A stretch of 64,000 nucleotides of DNA, from assembly GCA_951406725.2 (NCBI GenBank), contig OX597816.1, forward strand, positions 17,484,001 to 17,548,000. The letters are read 5' to 3'. Origin of the DNA: Octopus vulgaris (taxonomy: Eukaryota). Positions within the stretch are counted from its first letter, which is position 1. Each line of letters opens with the position of its first letter. Made by a program: the position numbers and the translations under genes. This document shows, one piece after another, positions 1,344-61,038 of this stretch. The notes beneath the pieces are model-generated. The model searched no databases, had not been told where the DNA came from, and was given only the letters and a program-made list of their open reading frames with translations.

Positions 1344-1944
1344 TATTTCTTTATTGACCAAAAGGGGCTAAACATAGAGGGGACAAACAAGGTCAGACAA
1401 ACGGATTAAGTCGATTATATCGACCCCAGTGCGTAACTGCTACTTATTTAATCGACCCCGAAAGGATGAAAGGCAAAGTCGACCTCGGCGGAATTTGAAC
1501 TCAGAACGTAAAGACAGACGAAATACCTATTTCTTTACTACCCACAAGGGGCTAATCGCAGAGAGGACAAATAAGGACAGACAAACGGATTAAGTCGATT
1601 ATATCGACCCCAGTGCGTAACTGGTACTTATTTAATCGACCCCGAAAGAATGAAAGGCAAAGTCGTCCTCGGCGGAATTTAAACTCTGAACATAGCGACG
1701 GGCGAAATACCTATTTCTTTACTACCCCACAAGGGACTAAACGCAGAACGAACAAACAAGGACAGGCAAACGGATTAAGTCGATTATATCGACCCCAGTG
1801 CGTAACTGGTACTTAATTTATCGACCCCCGAAAGGATGAAAGGCAAAGTCGACATCGACGGAATTTAAACTCAGAACGTAACGGCAGACGAAATACCGCT
1901 ACGCATTTCACCTCGCGTGTTAACGTTTCTGCTAGCTCGCCGCC
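1344..1944 (-). mobile_element. SINE family A2 (tRNA head, Meta-like core), trimer with one head
   Basis: Three ~185-bp bodies joined at AAGAAATA|GGTATTTC, with one GGCGGCGAGCT head at 1944. TSD AGAAGCYGTAGTTTCT at 1328-1343 and 1954-1969. Confidence 0.9.
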
Positions 1945-7241: not shown

Positions 7242-7925
7242 TACATGTGCAAATAGATACATAAACACATATATATATACATAAGTATATTTGTATACAT
7301 ACACACACACACACACACATATATATATATGTATATACATACATACACATACGTTCATATATACATATACATACACACATACATATACATACATACACAC
7401 ATATATATATCAATGGCTTATTCGTGCATATAAAATACATGTATATACGCAAAATGCAATAATACGCACAGATACGACCACACACGTACACAGAATCACA
7501 ACTGCACAGATGCCCAACCAAATACACGTGGGACATAGATGCAGATAAAAACAGAGTAACGGACTATTTACTCAGAACTGATCGGTTATCATGTAAATCT
7601 GAGATGGCTATGTGTCACGGTGGCTATCAACTGCGATGCATTGGTGGTAACTCATCTATCTTATTCTCTAGTCGACAAATTTGCTAATGCCTCCACTTGT
7701 AGATGATAGCCGTATGTAATGCTGTAATGAATATTATGTAGATGCTGATAAGAAATGTAATCTGGATTGGCTTAAAAGGTTATAAATCACAAGAAAATAA
7801 TTGAACTGCACCATGCCATGAAATAAATAATATATAAATATATATATATATTTCTCATTTTTTATCCTTCAATTGTTATTTTAACATGGGTAATCTTACA
7901 GAGATATATTTTCACTCACATATTC

Positions 7926-8479
<554 letters not shown>

Positions 8480-9051
8480 GGATGAATGAATATGTGAGTG
8501 AAAAATATATTTATGTCAGATTACCCATGTTAAAATAACAATTGAAGGATAAAAAATGAGAAATGGTCGAGAGACAGGGTGATAGAAAGGACAGACATTT
8601 GAGTTGTAGGGGTGGTAGGATTGAGAGAAGGAATATGAGATACAGAGTGAATTCAAAGCAAAGAGGGGAATAGAGGGGGTGAAGAAATAAGGGGTCGGGT
8701 TAGGGAGAGTGAGAAGAGAAATCAGAAAGACACATGTAGCATTAATAAGAGAATTCTTTGAGGGTGACGAAGAAGAAAAATTCGTACAGACTGTGTAAAT
8801 GCCATGGGTGTGAAGCAAAGATATATGTATGCATGAATGCACCTACAGACCACGCGCGCGCACGCACAAGCACGTACATAGACGTAAATGCATAAATATA
8901 TGTATGTATATATATACATATACTTACAGAATACAACCATACAAACATAAATACATACATACTGTTCCTTATAGTATGTAAGGCGACCTGTTAAGGCTCA
9001 CCTCTTTTGTGTTTAAATGTACACTAATTTTTATATATATATGTGCATAAA

Positions 9052-16942: not shown

Positions 16943-17492
16943 TCCTGATGCTGTACCAGGCAGTGGTTCTCATGGCTTCTGATCTTAACTGATTTACATT
17001 TTTTTTGTCTTGGTATAAAAGATGGGCTAAAGCAAATATTCTGCTCAATACCACAGATTTGCTTGTCAGTTGTTTGACCTTAACCAGTTGAGCTTGTCCC
17101 TTAGTGGCTGACGATATGTGCATCTCTGATCACGAGAAGAAGTAGTGGGGGAGCATCATAGCCATGTGTTGAGAGGGATTCTTTGAGGTTTGAATAATTC
17201 ACCCCTGGAAACATGGGTATTTTGTTCAACGTCCTTAGGCAAACCTTATCCAGGGATCTTTTTAACAGGATAGGCTACTCGACCTGACGAAAATTCTAAT
17301 TGGGTCCCACTTGCAGGGTCATGCGCTATTTAACTTGATATGAGATCACCATGTCAAGCATGTGATGCATGTGCCAGGTGTACCCTTATCAGACGGGTGG
17401 TCATGATGGGTATATTGGGCTTCGTATATTTTACTCCAGTGTCACTTTGATGGCATGCACTGCTCTCTCACTCAATAAAAATAATTATTATT
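16943..17492 (+). mobile_element. Retroposon 3' segment ending in (TAA)n, probably a Dong-like 3' UTR or dependent SINE
   Basis: Ends CTCACTCAATAAAAATAATTATT; an inverted homologous copy lies at 18160-18610. Confidence 0.75.
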
Positions 17493-17901: not shown

Positions 17902-18152
17902 TTATTGTCTTTGCACAGCTTCTGACTGACGCTGGAGATACACTACCGTGTCAACTGTTAACTTCTAGTGAACTAAGGTAACACCCCTTAGTTTTCGAGT
18001 ACCAGCCGGAGTATTCGAGTGGTTCCAAGCTGTGCTGTTTTCTGCAAGTGCTCCACCCTTATTGCAGCCCCTATTTGTTCTATGTACTTCTCGAGATTTT
18101 TACTCACAACAATTATTGATGCTATTACCACCATTTCCAGCGACCACAATTG
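17900..18152 (-). pseudogene. R4/Dong-clade LINE 3' end (family 1)
   Basis: LEKYIEQIGAAIRVEHLQKTAQLGTTRILRLVLE, then a short UTR and (TAA)n. Confidence 0.85.
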
Positions 18153-18159
18153 CTTCTTC

Positions 18160-18606
18160 TTATTATTATTGAGTGAGAAAGCAGTGCATGCCATCAAAGT
18201 GACACTGGGGTAAAATATACGAAGCCCAATATACCCATCATGACTACCCGTCTGATAAAGGTACACCAGGCACACAACCATATGTGCGCGACATGGTGAT
18301 CTCATATCAAGATAAACAGCACATGACCTTGCAGGTGGGGTCCAGTTAGAATTTTCTTCAGGTTGAGTAGCCCATCCCGCTCAAACGGTCCCTGAATAAG
18401 GGTTGTTTAAGGATGTTGAAAGAACCACCCATGTTTCCAGAGGTGAACTATTCAAACCCCAAAGAATCCCTCTCAACACATGGCTATGATGCTCCCCCAC
18501 TACTTCTGCTCGTGATCAGAGATGCACATATCGTCAGCCACTAAGGGACATGCTCAACTGGTTAAGGTCAAACAACTGACAAGCAAATCTGTGGTATTGA
18601 GCAGAA

Positions 18607-18610
<4 letters not shown>
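18160..18610 (-). mobile_element. Second copy of the (TAA)n-tailed retroposon segment
   Basis: Reverse complement of 17035-17480. Confidence 0.8.
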
Positions 18611-18698
<88 letters not shown>

Positions 18699-28944: not shown

Positions 28945-30005
28945 AGGCAGCGAACCGCAAGAACCGTTAACACAGCAGACAAAATGCTTAGCGGTATTCT
29001 GCGGGCTGGCAGAAACGTTAGCAAACCGGGCGAAATGCTTAGCGGTATTTCGTTGCCGCTACGTTCTGAGTTCAAATTCCACCGAGGTCGACTTTGCCTT
29101 TCATCCTTTCGGGGTCGATAAATCAAGTACCAGTTACGCACTGGGGTCGATATAACTGACTTAATCCATTTGTCCGTCCTTGATTGTCCCCTCTGTGTTT
29201 AGTTCCTTGTGGGTAGTAAAGTAATAGGTATTTCGTCTGCCGTTACGTTCTGAGTTCAAATTCCGCCGAGGTCGACTTTGCCTTTCATCCTTTCGGGTCG
29301 ATTAAATTAAGTACCAGTTACGCACTGGGGTTGATATAATCGACTTAATCCTTTTGTCTGTCCTTGTCTGTCCTTGTCCTCTCTGTGTTTAGCCCCTTGT
29401 GGGTAGTAAAGAAATAGGTATTTCTTCCATCTTCACGTTCTGAGGTCAAATTCCGCCAAGGTCAACGTTACCTTTCATCCTTTTGGGGTCGATAAATTAA
29501 GTATCAGTTGAACTAATCGATTTATCCCCTCTACCGAAATTGCTAGCCTTGTACCAAAATTTGAAACAATATTCTATGTAGGAACAAAGCAATGCGCTGA
29601 TAGAATCTTAATCGCGCCAGACAAAATGCTGAGTGGTATGTTTTTTCGACTTTGCGTTCTAAGTTCAAATGCCGCCGGTGTCAACTTTGCCTTTTGTTTT
29701 TCGGGGTCTATACAAAAAATACCAGTTGAACACTGGGGTCGATGTAACTGATTTACTTTGAAATCAATATTTTATGCAGGAATAAGGCAATGCGTTGGCA
29801 GAATCATTACCGTGCCGAACAAAATGCGTAGTGGCATTTCTTCCGACTTTATGTTCTGACTTTAATTTCCTCCAGAGTCGATTTCGTCTTTTATCCTTTC
29901 GAGGTCAGCAAAATAAAATCCCAGTTGAGCCCTGGGGCCGATGGAATCGCCTTACCCGCTATACCCCGAACTTGCAGGTCTCGTACCAAAATTTGAAACC
30001 AGGAA
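28945..30005 (+). mobile_element. Cluster of A1 SINEs with a nested A2 dimer
   Basis: An A1 head is interrupted at GGTATT by two A2 bodies; the A1 body resumes at ~29418; two more A1 copies follow. Confidence 0.9.
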
Positions 30006-42802: not shown

Positions 42803-43220
42803 GGCGGCGAGCTGGCTGAATCGTTTGCACGCCGGATGAAATGCTTAGCGGTATTTCGTCTGCCGCTACGTTCTGAGTTCAAATTCCGCCGAGGTCCACT
42901 TTGCCTTTCATCCATTCGGGGTCGATTAAATAAGTACCAATTACGCACTGGGGTCGATATAATCGACTTAATCCGTTTGTCTGTCCTTGTTTGTCCCTTC
43001 TGTGTTTAGCCCCGTGTGGGTAGTAAAAAAAAAAAGGTATTTCGTCTGCCGTTACGCTCTGAGTTCAAATTCCACCGAGGTCGACTTTGCCTTTCATCCT
43101 TTTGGGGTCGATTAAGTAAGTACCAGTTACACACTGGGGTCGATGTAATCGACTTAATCCCTTTGTCTGTCCTTGTTTGTCCCCTCTAATGTTTAGCCCC
43201 TTGTGGGCAATAAAGAAATA
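42803..43220 (+). mobile_element. SINE family A2 dimer
   Basis: One head and two bodies joined at GGTATTTC. Confidence 0.9.
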
Positions 43221-44159: not shown

Positions 44160-44755
44160 CTTGAAATTTTGGGGAAGGTGGCTAGTTGATTACATCGAAC
44201 GCACTACTTGACTGGCAGAAACGGTAGCACGCCGGGCGAAATGCGTAGCCGTATTTCGTCTGCCGTTACGTTCTGAGTTCAAATTCCGCCGAGGTCGACT
44301 TTGCCTTTCATCCTTTCGAGGTCGATAAATTAAGTACCAGTTACGCACTGGGGTCGATGTAATCGACTTAATCTGTGTGTCTGTCCTTGTTTGTTCTCTC
44401 TGTGTTTAGCCTCTTGTGGGTAATAAAGAAATAGGTATTTGGTCTGCCGTTACGTTCTGAGTTCAAATTCCGCCGTGTCGACTTTGCCTTTCATCCTTTC
44501 GGGGTCGATTAACTCAAGTACCAGTTACGCACTGGGGTCGATATAATCGACTTAATCCCTCTGTCTGTCCTTGTTTGTCTCCTCTGTGTTTAGCCCCTTG
44601 TGGGTAGTAAAGAAATAGGTATTTATTTTATCGATTTCGAAAGGATGAGAGGCAAAGGTGACCTCAGCGAAATTTGAACTCAGAACATGAAGACAGACGA
44701 AATGCCGCTAAGCATTTCACCTGGCGTGCTAACGAATCTGTCGCTTCACCGTCTT
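44160..44755. mobile_element. A2 dimer (+, 44212-44617) inserted into an antisense A1 SINE
   Basis: The minus-strand A1 copy is split at CTGGTATTTATTTT. Confidence 0.85.
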
Positions 44756-46304: not shown

Positions 46305-47315
46305 GGTTTCAAACTGTGATACAAGGCCAGCAATTTCACAGGAGTGGAAGTTAAATCGTTTAAATCGAGAGCAGTGTTCAACTGGAACTTAACTTATCAA
46401 CACCGAAAGGATGAAAGGCAAAGACGACTCCGGCGGAATTTGAACTGAGAACGAAGAGACAGACAAAATGCCGCTCAGCATTTAACCCGCCATGCTAACG
46501 ATTCTTATTTCTTTATTGACCACAAGGGGCTAAACATACAGGGGACAAACAAGGACAGACAAACGGATTAAGTCGATTACATCGACCCCGTGCGTAACTG
46601 GTACTTAATTTATCGACCCCGAAAGGATGAAAGGCAAAGTCGACCTCGGCGGAATTTGAACTCAGAATGTAACGGCAGACGAAATACCTATTTCTTTATT
46701 ACCCACAAGGGGCTAAACACAGAGGAGACAAACAAGGACAGACAAACGGATTAAGACACCCCGTGCGTAACTGGTACTTAATTTATCGACCCCGAAAGGA
46801 TGAAAGGCAAAGTCGACCTCGGCGGAATTTGAACTCAGAACGTAACGGCAGACGAAATACCTATTTCTTTATTACCCACAAGGGCTAAACACAGAGGAGA
46901 CAAACGGATTAAGTCGAATATATCGACCCCAGTGCGTAACTGGTACTTATTTAATCGACCCCGAAAGGATGAAAGGCAAAGTCGACCTCGGCGGAATTTG
47001 AACTCAGAACGTAGCGGCAGACGAAATACCCCTAAGTATTTCGCCCGGAGTGCTAACGATTCTGCCAGCTCGTCGCCTTAATTCAGCAAAATAATAATGA
47101 TTTCAAAATTTGGCACAAGGCCAGTAGTTTCGAGTACGGGGTGGGATAAGTCAATTACATCGACTCCAGTGCTCAACTGGTACTTATTTTATCGACCCCG
47201 TAAGGATAAAAGACAAAGCCAACCTCGACGGAAATTGAACTCAGAATGGAGCGACGAGCGAAATACAGTTAAGCAGTTCCTCCAGCGTGCTAACGGTTCT
47301 GCCAGCTCGCTGCTT
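46305..47315 (-). mobile_element. A1 SINEs with a nested A2 trimer (46506-47077)
   Basis: Three A2 bodies with one head, inserted at AGAATCGTTAGC in an A1 head; a further A1 copy lies at 47099-47315. Confidence 0.9.
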
Positions 47316-49247: not shown

Positions 49248-49609
49248 CTAGCAGTATCGCCCGGCGTTGCTCGGGTCTGTAAGTAACTATAAAGCATTTT
49301 TAGAGAGTTATAGCCAAAAAATGGAAAAAAAATGATGGTAAATTTTTTTAGTTAAAAAGGTCGAGTTGCGTCCCCTAGACAGTCTGTGGTTTGTGTTTCT
49401 GATTCTCGACCCCATGTCGAATTTATCGATTTTTTCAGAACTGGGGGAACTTTTCAAAATTTTCACTGCGTTAGTTTTGAATTATGACATTGGGCTATGT
49501 GTGTGTCAAGTTTCATCAGAATCGGTTGAAAGCAGTGGTCAGGGTGAGGTACAACCTAACAGACACACAGAAACACACACAGACAAACTGCCGTTTATAT
49601 ATAGAGAGA
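49248..49609 (-). mobile_element. Non-autonomous Helitron
   Basis: A|TCTCTCTATATATAAAC 5' end; CCCGAGCAACGCCGGGCGATACTGCTAG|T 3' end. Confidence 0.85.
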
Positions 49610-59565: not shown

Positions 59566-59680
59566 TTATCTATCTATTTATCTATCTATATATATATGGC
59601 ACAGAAGAAATTTTGGCTTCTATTTTTAGCGGTACTACCCTTGTATATGCTCCCGTACTACCCTTGTGTATATATATATA

Positions 59681-60145
59681 GAGGGCATTATTACACATAA
59701 ATGCCGCACTCTAGGAGGGACTTTTAAAGTCATAACTACTAAATATAAACAAATCGTACCGAATGCAATTCTCGAAGCGAGTCAACTCGAAGCGGTTGTC
59801 TATCTGGTTTGTTGATTTTGTTCATTAATGATATATCTTGAGTTCGCTACACTGACGAGCAAGGGACGCAGATACTGCGTTAATTGCGAAATCACAGGTG
59901 ATCTGTAGCTAAATTCTGTTTTTAAATGACTCGCTTCGAGAATTGCATTCGGTACGATTTGTTTATATTTGGTAGTTATGACTTTAAAAGTCCCTTCTAG
60001 CGTGCGGCATTTATGTGTAATAATGCCCTCTATATAATATAAATAAATATCTTCAAGTGAAAAAATTTACAGATTTTTTCTCTTATGAGGTTTTTCACGC
60101 TAACTACTTGATAATTTCTTATTAAGATTTTATTCTATTTTTTAA

Positions 60146-60147
<2 letters not shown>
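59681..60147 (+). mobile_element. Penelope-like element with inverted duplication, between (TA)n tracts
   Basis: 104-bp inverted arms at 59681-59784 and 59927-60030 enclose a hammerhead. Confidence 0.75.
59846..59909 (+). ncRNA. Type I hammerhead ribozyme, canonical core
   Basis: GCTACA-CTGACGA-GCAA..GACGCAG ATA CTGCGTT..TTGC-GAAA-TCAC AG GTGA-TC-TGTAGC; cleavage predicted after AUC (59903). Confidence 0.85.
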
Positions 60148-60230
<83 letters not shown>

Positions 60231-60234
60231 TATG

Positions 60235-60268
<34 letters not shown>

Positions 60269-60498
60269 CATATACATATATACATCTATATATATATCTT
60301 TTATATTTTATATATTCAAATAAAGGTTATAAACCTCATTAAGGGATAGTAAAACCCAATGAAAATACTGGTTAGTTACCAATCCATAGAAAGTTCAACT
60401 ATAAACCGTGGTTCATATATTTATATATTTAAAGAATAAGGAGAAAATGGAGAAGCAATTAATAAAATATCATTTATTAATTATAAAATATGACAACA

Positions 60499-60585
60499 TC
60501 TCTGACAGCTGTTTCGATTCAGAAATCTTTAGATAATTAATTTATAAAATTAAAATCATTATAAGATGAATCTCCTAAGCGGTAG
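60499..60585 (-). ncRNA. Degenerate hammerhead motif
   Basis: Minus strand: CTTAGGA-GATTCA...TGAATC-GAAACAGCTGTC; G5 mutated and stem I weak. Confidence 0.55.
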
Positions 60586-60639
60586 TGAAGATATACCGAT
60601 TAGAAATACATGTTGAGGTAACAGTTAGAAACTTTCATA

Positions 60640-61038
60640 TCTTTATACATAAAAGTGAAGTTGTGTGTCTGTCTCCTACGATTTAGATTCCTAACTACTG
60701 CCACATTTTGCGGTGCAGTTTAACCAAAACCGGGTATCTTATAGTCGTGATTCATTCGAGCCCTTCAGGGTATTAGCGCACGTCTACGATGAGTCTACGA
60801 TTTAAAAAAAAATTTACCATTTTTTCCCATTTTAATGCATTATTTTCGCTATTATATAAGGGCAGTAACTCTCTAAAAATGTCTACGATGAGTCAACGAT
60901 TTAAAAAAAAAATTTACTATCATTTGTTTTCCATTTTTAATGCATTTTTCTTGCTATTTTTTTTTGCTATAATTCTCTAAAAATGCTTATATAGTTATTT
61001 CCCTTACAAACCCGAGCAACGCCGGACGATACTGCTAG
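60640..61038 (+). mobile_element. Non-autonomous Helitron, full length
   Basis: A|TCTTTATACATAAAAG ... CCCGAGCAACGCCGGACGATACTGCTAG|T; internal ~100-bp direct repeat. Confidence 0.9.

What the first reader, a model, noticed from the sequence alone, without database searches (positions are those of the whole stretch)
59681..60030. Canonical hammerhead enclosed by a 104-bp near-perfect inverted repeat
Seen: arms at 59681-59784 and 59927-60030 differ at only about three positions. The 142-nt loop holds a complete hammerhead, CTCGAAGCG is duplicated at the left junction, and the unit is bounded by (TA)n. Established: PLE insertions often have inverted partial pseudo-LTRs. Inference: a transcript would form a long dsRNA stem (an ADAR or Dicer substrate) with a self-cleaving loop. 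The low arm divergence suggests a young insertion.
Basis: partly seen in the sequence, partly recalled or inferred. Interest (0 to 1): 0.75.

Follow-up and report, generated by a model that had tools for sequence, protein, structure and literature searches.

The report
Head-to-head Penelope insertion with hammerhead
The hairpin and the self-cutting-RNA motif inside it are really in the sequence, but they are likely an ordinary leftover of a common Penelope-type jumping gene, whose insertion put a short reversed copy of its end in front of a longer copy; cutting is untested.

Summary
Observation confirmed: 104-bp arms with 3 mismatches, an intact type I hammerhead (59846-59909, predicted cut after 59903), a duplicated 9-mer. 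One correction: the unit does not end at 60030. Related contigs run colinearly from 59794 through the right arm to 60140 (end of the stretch laid); (TA)n starts at 60149. So this is a ~355-bp sense piece of an abundant repeat with an inverted 110-bp copy of part of its 3' region in front, joined by a 9-10-nt filler absent from relatives. Other copies invert at other breakpoints. This is the published layout of Penelope-like elements (PLEs); siRNA production and editing are also published for Penelope repeats. Across relatives 0 of 11 core bases vary and helices covary, so the ribozyme is likely under selection in the family. Its anatomy fits the Hydra clade, but no ORF was linked. Inside the hairpin the active fold is predicted rare (~1e-4); a dimer folds well. 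No transcription, editing or cleavage was shown. The scan noted near-identical layouts elsewhere in this genome. Ordinary; small extras are a longer covarying helix II and a readable junction.

The parts
59669..59680 (.). (TA)6, left target tract; its last 6 bases also match the element's own TATATA at 60031-60036
59675..59784 (-). Left arm: inverted copy of 59927-60036 (104-bp core 59681-59784 plus TATATA)
59785..59794 (+). Junction filler: A plus a second copy of CTCGAAGCG; relatives do not carry it; G59794 is shared with the sense piece; 59778-59789 is a near-palindrome (10 of 12)
59794..60148 (+). Sense piece of an abundant repeat family, colinear with relatives from 59794 to at least 60140
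   Evidence: X11 record 59794-60049; X9 records 59942-60101 and 59968-60140
59846..59909 (+). Type I hammerhead: helix I 6 bp (predicted extension 59840-59844/59912-59916), helix II 4 bp + 2x2 purine loop + 7-bp hairpin, helix III ATCAC-AG-GTGAT (self-complementary); predicted cut 59903/59904
59927..60036 (+). Right arm: an ordinary internal part of the sense piece, with no junction on either side
60037..60148 (+). One-sided extension ('tail'); many relatives stop near 60050 and go into (TA)n, others continue to 60140
   Evidence: tables 7 and 8
60149..60315 (.). (TA)n, right target tract

Best explanation
This is one copy of an abundant repeat in which an inverted 110-bp piece sits head to head in front of a ~355-bp sense piece carrying an intact type I hammerhead, all inside a TA tract, and it is likely the product of a single insertion by a Penelope-like retrotransposon enzyme (likely Hydra clade). 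Inferred mechanism: both target strands were nicked in (TA)n and each primed reverse transcription at an internal site of the RNA. The top-strand cDNA started at the element's own TATATA (60031-60036) and stopped after 110 nt at 59927. The bottom-strand cDNA started near 60148 and ran through the uncut ribozyme to 59794. The short cDNA then likely slipped back, or briefly folded back, at the small CTCG-CTT-CGAG hairpin, re-copied 9 nt, and was joined to the long cDNA over one shared G. The hairpin is therefore a by-product of insertion. The ribozyme likely works in the parent element's RNA, possibly as a dimer, and is predicted to be mostly misfolded in this locus's closed hairpin.
For: Shown: the family is abundant (1839, 230, 2128 and 27 contigs laid in runs X1, X2, X9, X11) and colinear across loop, right arm and tail. 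Three contigs from three runs stop matching at exactly 59794, and two loose ends there end in CGAT rather than the filler. Other copies invert elsewhere: of 13 joints listed, 5 jump from the inverted arm to the sense strand (59743->59915 in both X1 and X9), 7 change strand and 1 goes back. Loose ends behind 60050 run into (TA)n in 22 X9 and 3 X2 contigs. Both arms share alleles that are the minority in X1 (59932, 59942, 60005). In 26 variant rows at >=10%, 19 of 64 ribozyme positions vary but 0 of 11 core positions (p=0.014); 4 pairs vary on both sides with letters that keep a standard or wobble pair (59847/59908, 59849/59906, 59867/59879, 59871/59875). From papers: inverted 5'-truncated copy, one-sided tail and (TA)n targets (PMC8557442); palindromes at inverted junctions (PMC3846280); both strands nicked and extended, internal initiation, uncut RNA as main template (PMC11167929). 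Hydra hammerheads in File S2 have a 3-4-bp helix III with a 1-3-nt loop and often A at the cut site, as most relatives here (59903 C>A).
Against: No reverse transcriptase or GIY-YIG frame was linked: none of 148 of 337 candidate frames of the window reached a Pfam cut-off, no genome is held, and the repeat is not one of the published consensus sequences by five short motif look-ups. The tail here (about 112 nt; 14-20 nt in other copies) is not the 30-40 bp of the literature. Each joint rests on one contig per run, with 24-53 letters on the shorter side. Covarying letters are mostly not phased within single contigs; two changes break pairs (59851, 59862), and 59871/59875 is broken in the X11 contigs. 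Family depth falls off at 59795-59805, which may be the natural start of a non-coding unit. Rfam hammerhead models do not match.
Confidence: 0.84

Rival explanations
1. Variant of the best reading: the repeat is a non-coding, retrozyme-like unit of about 255-355 nt that borrows a PLE enzyme, not the end of a protein-coding PLE. The insertion mechanism would be the same. (Counted inside the 0.84; this number is its share.)
For: Family cover begins near 59795-59805; one X9 contig goes back from 60137 to 59919, a tandem-like joint; no ORF linked; animal retrozymes are reported to derive from PLE terminal repeats (bioRxiv 10.64898/2026.07.22.740005).
Against: No tandem unit at this locus. X11 contigs carry 107 to 1194 further bases upstream whose nature I could not read. 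A single go-back joint also fits a partial PLE tandem.
Confidence: 0.35
2. The inversion arose after insertion, by DNA repair or replication template switching at the small hairpin, not during reverse transcription.
For: A short templated filler with 1-nt microhomology is also typical of repair junctions (own knowledge); the arms share minority alleles, as a local duplication would give.
Against: Several other copies show inverted arms over the same outer region but with different inner ends, and the layout is the published PLE norm. The left arm ends at GCCCTCTAT, much like the last bases of the Hydra-2_Amil consensus (GCCACTCTAT, compared by eye).
Confidence: 0.07
3. A dedicated fold-back or viroid-like element: the hairpin plus ribozyme loop is the unit that moves or that is selected to make dsRNA.
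For: A transcript is predicted to form a 110-bp stem (-221.8 kcal/mol), and the ribozyme core is intact.
Against: No other contig shares this junction (59760-59787 covered by 1 X1 contig); other copies break elsewhere; the element extends past the right arm; the loop's rod-like fold is no better than shuffles (z=-0.06); active fold predicted at about 1e-4 in the hairpin against 0.06 alone.
Confidence: 0.05
4. Assembly artefact (fold-back chimera).
For: Only one contig bridges the junction, with 21 letters on the arm side (30 up to the native boundary), under the tool's 31-letter guide; X1 may be the sample the window came from.
Against: That contig (59764-59897) is 134 of 134 identical at depth 80; the arms differ at 3 sites; similar inversions occur in a second organism's run (X9).
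Confidence: 0.03

Closest known systems
Inverted 5'-truncated pLTR insertions of endonuclease-bearing Penelope-like elements (Craig et al. 2021 PMC8557442: passages, section 11, supplement parts 2, 52, 53; Arkhipova et al. 2013 PMC3846280: passages)
   Same: Head-to-head inverted partial copy at the 5' end, one-sided extension, junction palindrome, sense hammerhead near the 3' end, (TA)n target.
   Different: No ORF at this locus; extension about 112 nt instead of 30-40 bp; a 9-nt re-copied filler at the junction.
Hammerheads of Hydra-clade PLEs (PMC8557442 File S2; includes Hydra-1_Obim of Octopus bimaculoides)
   Same: Type I, helix III of about 4 bp with a very short loop and self-complementary, A frequent at the cut site, T-rich run just downstream, (TA)n insertion.
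   Different: Helix II region is 29 nt with a 2x2 purine internal loop, against simple 3-7-bp stems with 3-10-nt loops in the Hydra rows of File S2; not the same sequence as Hydra-1_Obim; clade-defining protein motifs could not be tested.
Animal non-LTR retrozymes (Cervera and de la Pena 2020 PMC7229834: passages; bioRxiv 10.64898/2026.07.22.740005: part 1 of 5)
   Same: Short, AT-rich, non-coding repeat with a type I hammerhead, in a likely mollusc genome.
   Different: Not in tandem at this locus; no unit-length or circular RNA shown.
Penelope inverted repeats as dsRNA sources (PMC3681739 passages: siRNAs match inverted regions in transformed D. melanogaster; PMC5625713 passages: lizard Penelope massively edited, octopus rich in near-perfect dsRNA)
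   Same: A read-through transcript would give a long near-perfect stem.
   Different: Nothing shows transcription, editing or small RNAs at this locus.

Membership tests
Type I hammerhead ribozyme | Core CUGANGA / GAAA / UH with three helices, helix I open | tested here: met
   4 of 20000 shuffles give a loose hit
Type I hammerhead ribozyme | Conserved core and covarying helices among relatives | tested here: met
   0 of 11 core positions vary, 19 of 64 overall; 4 pairs vary on both sides; mostly unphased
Type I hammerhead ribozyme | Match to a curated Rfam hammerhead model | tested here: not met
   the long helix II is a likely reason (inference)
Type I hammerhead ribozyme | Self-cleavage at the predicted site | not testable with these tools
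   folding only:
EN+ Penelope-like element insertion | Inverted 5'-truncated copy adjacent to the 5' end | tested here: met
EN+ Penelope-like element insertion | One-sided tail of 30-40 bp | tested here: inconclusive
   one-sided extension present but about 112 nt here, 14-20 nt in copies ending at 60050
EN+ Penelope-like element insertion | AT-rich or (TA)n target | tested here: met
   loose ends into (TA)n
EN+ Penelope-like element insertion | RT plus GIY-YIG ORF in full-length copies | not testable with these tools
   no genome; none found among 148 of 337 window frames
EN+ Penelope-like element insertion | Partial tandems forming pLTRs | tested here: inconclusive
   one go-back joint 60137->59919 in X9
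Hydra clade | RWK and DKT motifs, no CCHH, CxCX5C linker | not testable with these tools
   no protein linked; definition
Hydra clade | Canonical sense hammerhead near the 3' end and (TA)n insertion | tested here: met
   compared by eye with File S2
Non-LTR retrozyme | Tandem units each with a hammerhead | tested here: not met
   single unit at this locus; other loci not seen
MITE or fold-back element | Fixed terminal inverted repeats at both ends, shared by copies | tested here: not met
   element runs past the right arm; breakpoints differ among copies

The most novel reading that the evidence does not exclude
Head-to-head insertions that keep an intact hammerhead in the loop act as self-opening hairpins: on read-through the ribozyme cuts co-transcriptionally or as a dimer, leaving a ~105-bp duplex that feeds octopus ADAR or small-RNA silencing of the family, and the covarying helix II extension with its 2x2 purine loop is an undescribed tertiary module of Hydra-type hammerheads.
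Probability: 0.06. Interest if true: 0.55.

Novelty: new member of a known kind. Interest (0 to 1): 0.17.

Why it matters
Little as a single locus: the layout and its dsRNA consequences are in print. It is useful as one clean data point on the unsolved question of how PLEs make inverted ends, because the junction keeps a re-copied 9-mer and the two arms start at different sites, which fits two-strand priming seen in vitro. The family's longer, covarying helix II, missed by Rfam, would make a simple bench test of what the extra arm does.

Tried and rejected
Own-genome search: none held. Exact 25-nt pattern in metagenome contigs: 0 hits. Earlier findings by sequence, relatives and near: nothing relevant. 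Run search: no RNA holder listed; X11 and X15 are only guessed to be RNA, hold relatives, and do not cover this junction, which is no evidence on expression. Editing signature: rejected; at 59996 the family has C (48358 of 50218 depth in X1), so that is C>T on the right arm; 59971 has both A and G among relatives (loose ends), so at most 1 of 3 mismatches could be A>G; 60001 is not among the rows shown (45 hidden). Copies starting at the cut site: summed depth rises about tenfold over 59893-59913 in X1 but earlier (59865-59892) in X9, and loose ends there look like diverged ribozymes; not claimed. Upstream strand as a built-in off-switch: z=-0.06, rejected. Kinship of the neighbour 60316-60640 with the sense piece: score 30, reached by 23 of 500 shuffles, rejected. 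ORF start after the ribozyme: no long frame. Co-transcriptional series failed and was not rerun; one nascent length (59675-59916) gave 0.031. Empty-site test in the second organism was not done (both read-laying runs used). Published Hydra consensus ends were compared by eye only, so that link has no score. Literature searches; none listed a paper on this family; subscription papers, Repbase and bioRxiv supplements were not seen.

Full report
Observation. The arms 59681-59784 and 59927-60030 differ at 3 of 104 positions and extend 6 bp as TATATA. The 142-nt loop holds the window's only hit to a loose type I hammerhead scan; 4 of 20000 shuffles of the loop give such a hit. Helix I is GCTACA/TGTAGC with a predicted 5-bp extension beyond a small internal loop. 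Helix II is 4 bp, a 2x2 purine loop and a 7-bp hairpin. Helix III is ATCAC-AG-GTGAT. The predicted cut is after C59903. CTCGAAGCG stands at 59771 and 59786 (25 of 20000 shuffles). Rfam gave no hammerhead match. The window is microsatellite-rich animal DNA; none of 148 of 337 candidate frames reached a Pfam cut-off, so no host gene or retroelement ORF was placed. That the host is an octopus comes from earlier scan notes on this genome and my recall of the repeat types; I did not test it.

What the relatives show. No genome is held, so I laid public contigs on the stretch (runs; 5 of 24 runs laid). On 59600-60140, 1839, 230, 2128 and 27 contigs were laid in X1, X2, X9 (a second organism) and X11; summed depth is no copy number, but the repeat is plainly abundant. 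Relatives are colinear from 59794 through loop and right arm (X11 record 59794-60049, 21 other letters, 1 gap) and on to 60140, the end of the stretch (X9 records 59942-60101, 59968-60140). Loose ends behind 60050 run into (TA)n in 22 X9 and 3 X2 contigs. On 59760-59960 only one X1 contig covers 59760-59787: 59764-59897, 134 of 134 identical, depth 80. It bridges the junction with 21 arm letters, under the tool's 31-letter guide, and X1 may be the source sample. Three contigs from three runs stop matching at 59794, and two loose ends there end in CGAT, so 59785-59793 is filler private to this copy. Of 13 joints, 5 go from the inverted arm to the sense strand at other places (59743->59915 in X1 and X9, with 20 letters between that resemble the arm's continuation), 7 change strand, 1 goes back; each rests on one contig per run with 24-53 letters on the shorter side. 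Inversion is thus a family habit with variable breakpoints.

Ribozyme. In the 26 variant rows, 19 of 64 hammerhead positions vary and 0 of 11 core positions (p=0.014; biased by the 82% laying threshold). N7 and the cut-site base vary (59856 C>A, 59903 C>A). Four pairs vary on both sides with letters that keep pairing (59847/59908, 59849/59906, 59867/59879, 59871/59875), three more change on one side to a standard or wobble pair (59865, 59869, 59870), and two changes break a pair (59851, 59862); most are not phased, and 59871/59875 is broken in the X11 contigs. This points to selection on the ribozyme and on the helix II hairpin in the family. For this copy, nearest-neighbour folding gives the active form 0.059 alone, 0.031 in a nascent chain ending at 59916, and about 1e-4 in the closed hairpin; such models omit tertiary contacts. 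The competing rod fold is chance-level (z=-0.06). Two copies fold by themselves into the strand-swapped active dimer (-54.8 against 2 x -22.0 kcal/mol). Helix III is not shorter than that of invertebrate retrozyme ribozymes that cut well alone (PMC7229834 passages), so monomer cutting is not excluded; PLE hammerheads tested so far are weak, dimeric or protein-assisted (PMC4209133 outline and results; PMC11167929 parts 1-2 of 4).

Age and editing. Both arms carry alleles that are the minority in X1 (59932 C, 59942 A, 60005 C), while 960 of 1839 X1 contigs are under 95% alike, so the arms come from one template or one subfamily and the insertion is young relative to the family. At 59996 the family has C, making that a C>T change on the right arm; 59971 is A or G among relatives; 60001 was not shown. 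There is no editing signature, and two template RNAs could explain part of the difference.

Mechanism (inferred). PLE protein nicks both strands of AT-rich DNA, extends both, starts inside the RNA at two sites, and mainly uses uncut RNA (PMC11167929). Applied here: the top-strand cDNA began at the element's TATATA (60031-60036), which pairs with a (TA)n primer, and ended at 59927; the bottom-strand cDNA began near 60148 and ran through the ribozyme to 59794. The RNA has a small hairpin CTCG-CTT-CGAG at 59930-59940; slipping back 14 nt, possibly after a short fold-back that explains the near-palindrome 59778-59789, re-copies the 9-mer, and one shared G joins the two cDNAs. Arkhipova et al. describe palindromes at such junctions and prefer self-priming on an antisense template (PMC3846280 passages); my data do not separate the two models.

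Comparison with what is known. Inverted 5'-truncated copies, a one-sided tail and (TA)n targets are standard for EN+ PLEs (PMC8557442). Earlier scan notes pointed me to the Hydra clade. File S2 shows Hydra hammerheads with a self-complementary 3-4-bp helix III, a 1-3-nt loop and often A at the cut site; by eye the Hydra-2_Amil consensus ends in GCCACTCTAT, close to GCCCTCTAT where the left arm ends, and has a similar ACTT-AAAAGT hairpin upstream. This is a resemblance without a score, and the clade's protein motifs were not testable. Differences: helix II region of 29 nt with an internal loop, and a longer tail. siRNAs from Penelope inverted repeats (PMC3681739) and heavy editing of lizard Penelope (PMC5625713) are in print. 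Six searches listed no paper on this family; Repbase, subscription papers and preprint supplements were not seen. The scan noted near-identical layouts on other pieces of this genome; those notes are unchecked and not counted as support.

Verdict. Real, PLE-type, ordinary: new member of a known kind, interest 0.17. The functional hairpin-with-self-cleaving-loop reading stays possible (0.06) but has no support beyond the sequence.

Noticed in passing
window 60490-60530, minus strand: Half hammerhead: GAAAC-AGCT-GTC with a self-complementary helix III and flanks that could pair as helix I, but no CUGANGA in canonical order; lies in a separate AT-rich piece after the (TA)n. May be a deleted ribozyme or the rewired type described in earlier scan notes.
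   Followed up: partly
window 60782-60985 and 49256-49356: A ~100-bp direct duplication (80% alike) with short matches to a piece at 49.3 kb on the opposite strand; likely another repeat family.
   Followed up: no
window 59632-59644 and 59655-59667: Exact 13-bp direct repeat just left of the TA target; unexplained.
   Followed up: no
window 17034-17484 and 18160-18611: 453-bp inverted pair (90% alike) around (ATT)n tracts; the frame at 17988-18380 (-) ends in a motif I recall from the C-terminus of restriction-endonuclease-type LINEs (no Pfam hit). Probably two neighbouring copies of one retroposon.
   Followed up: partly
window 7850-7930 and 8480-8564: About 80 bp of unique inverted sequence plus (ATCT)n/(AGAT)n tracts, enclosing a ~240-bp segment; looks like a local inversion-duplication.
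   Followed up: partly
window 1344-1897, 29044-29509, 42850-43218, 44251-44624, 46506-47030: Several short tandem arrays of one 173-190-bp repeat family, in both orientations.
   Followed up: no
run contigs over window 59859-59887: A subfamily with a different helix II sequence seems to keep the same plan (short stem, purine internal loop, 6-bp hairpin), read from loose-end consensus only.
   Followed up: partly
window 60056-60100: Predicted 9-bp hairpin in the tail; 60075-60130 has higher summed depth than its neighbours and may be shared by several subfamilies.
   Followed up: no
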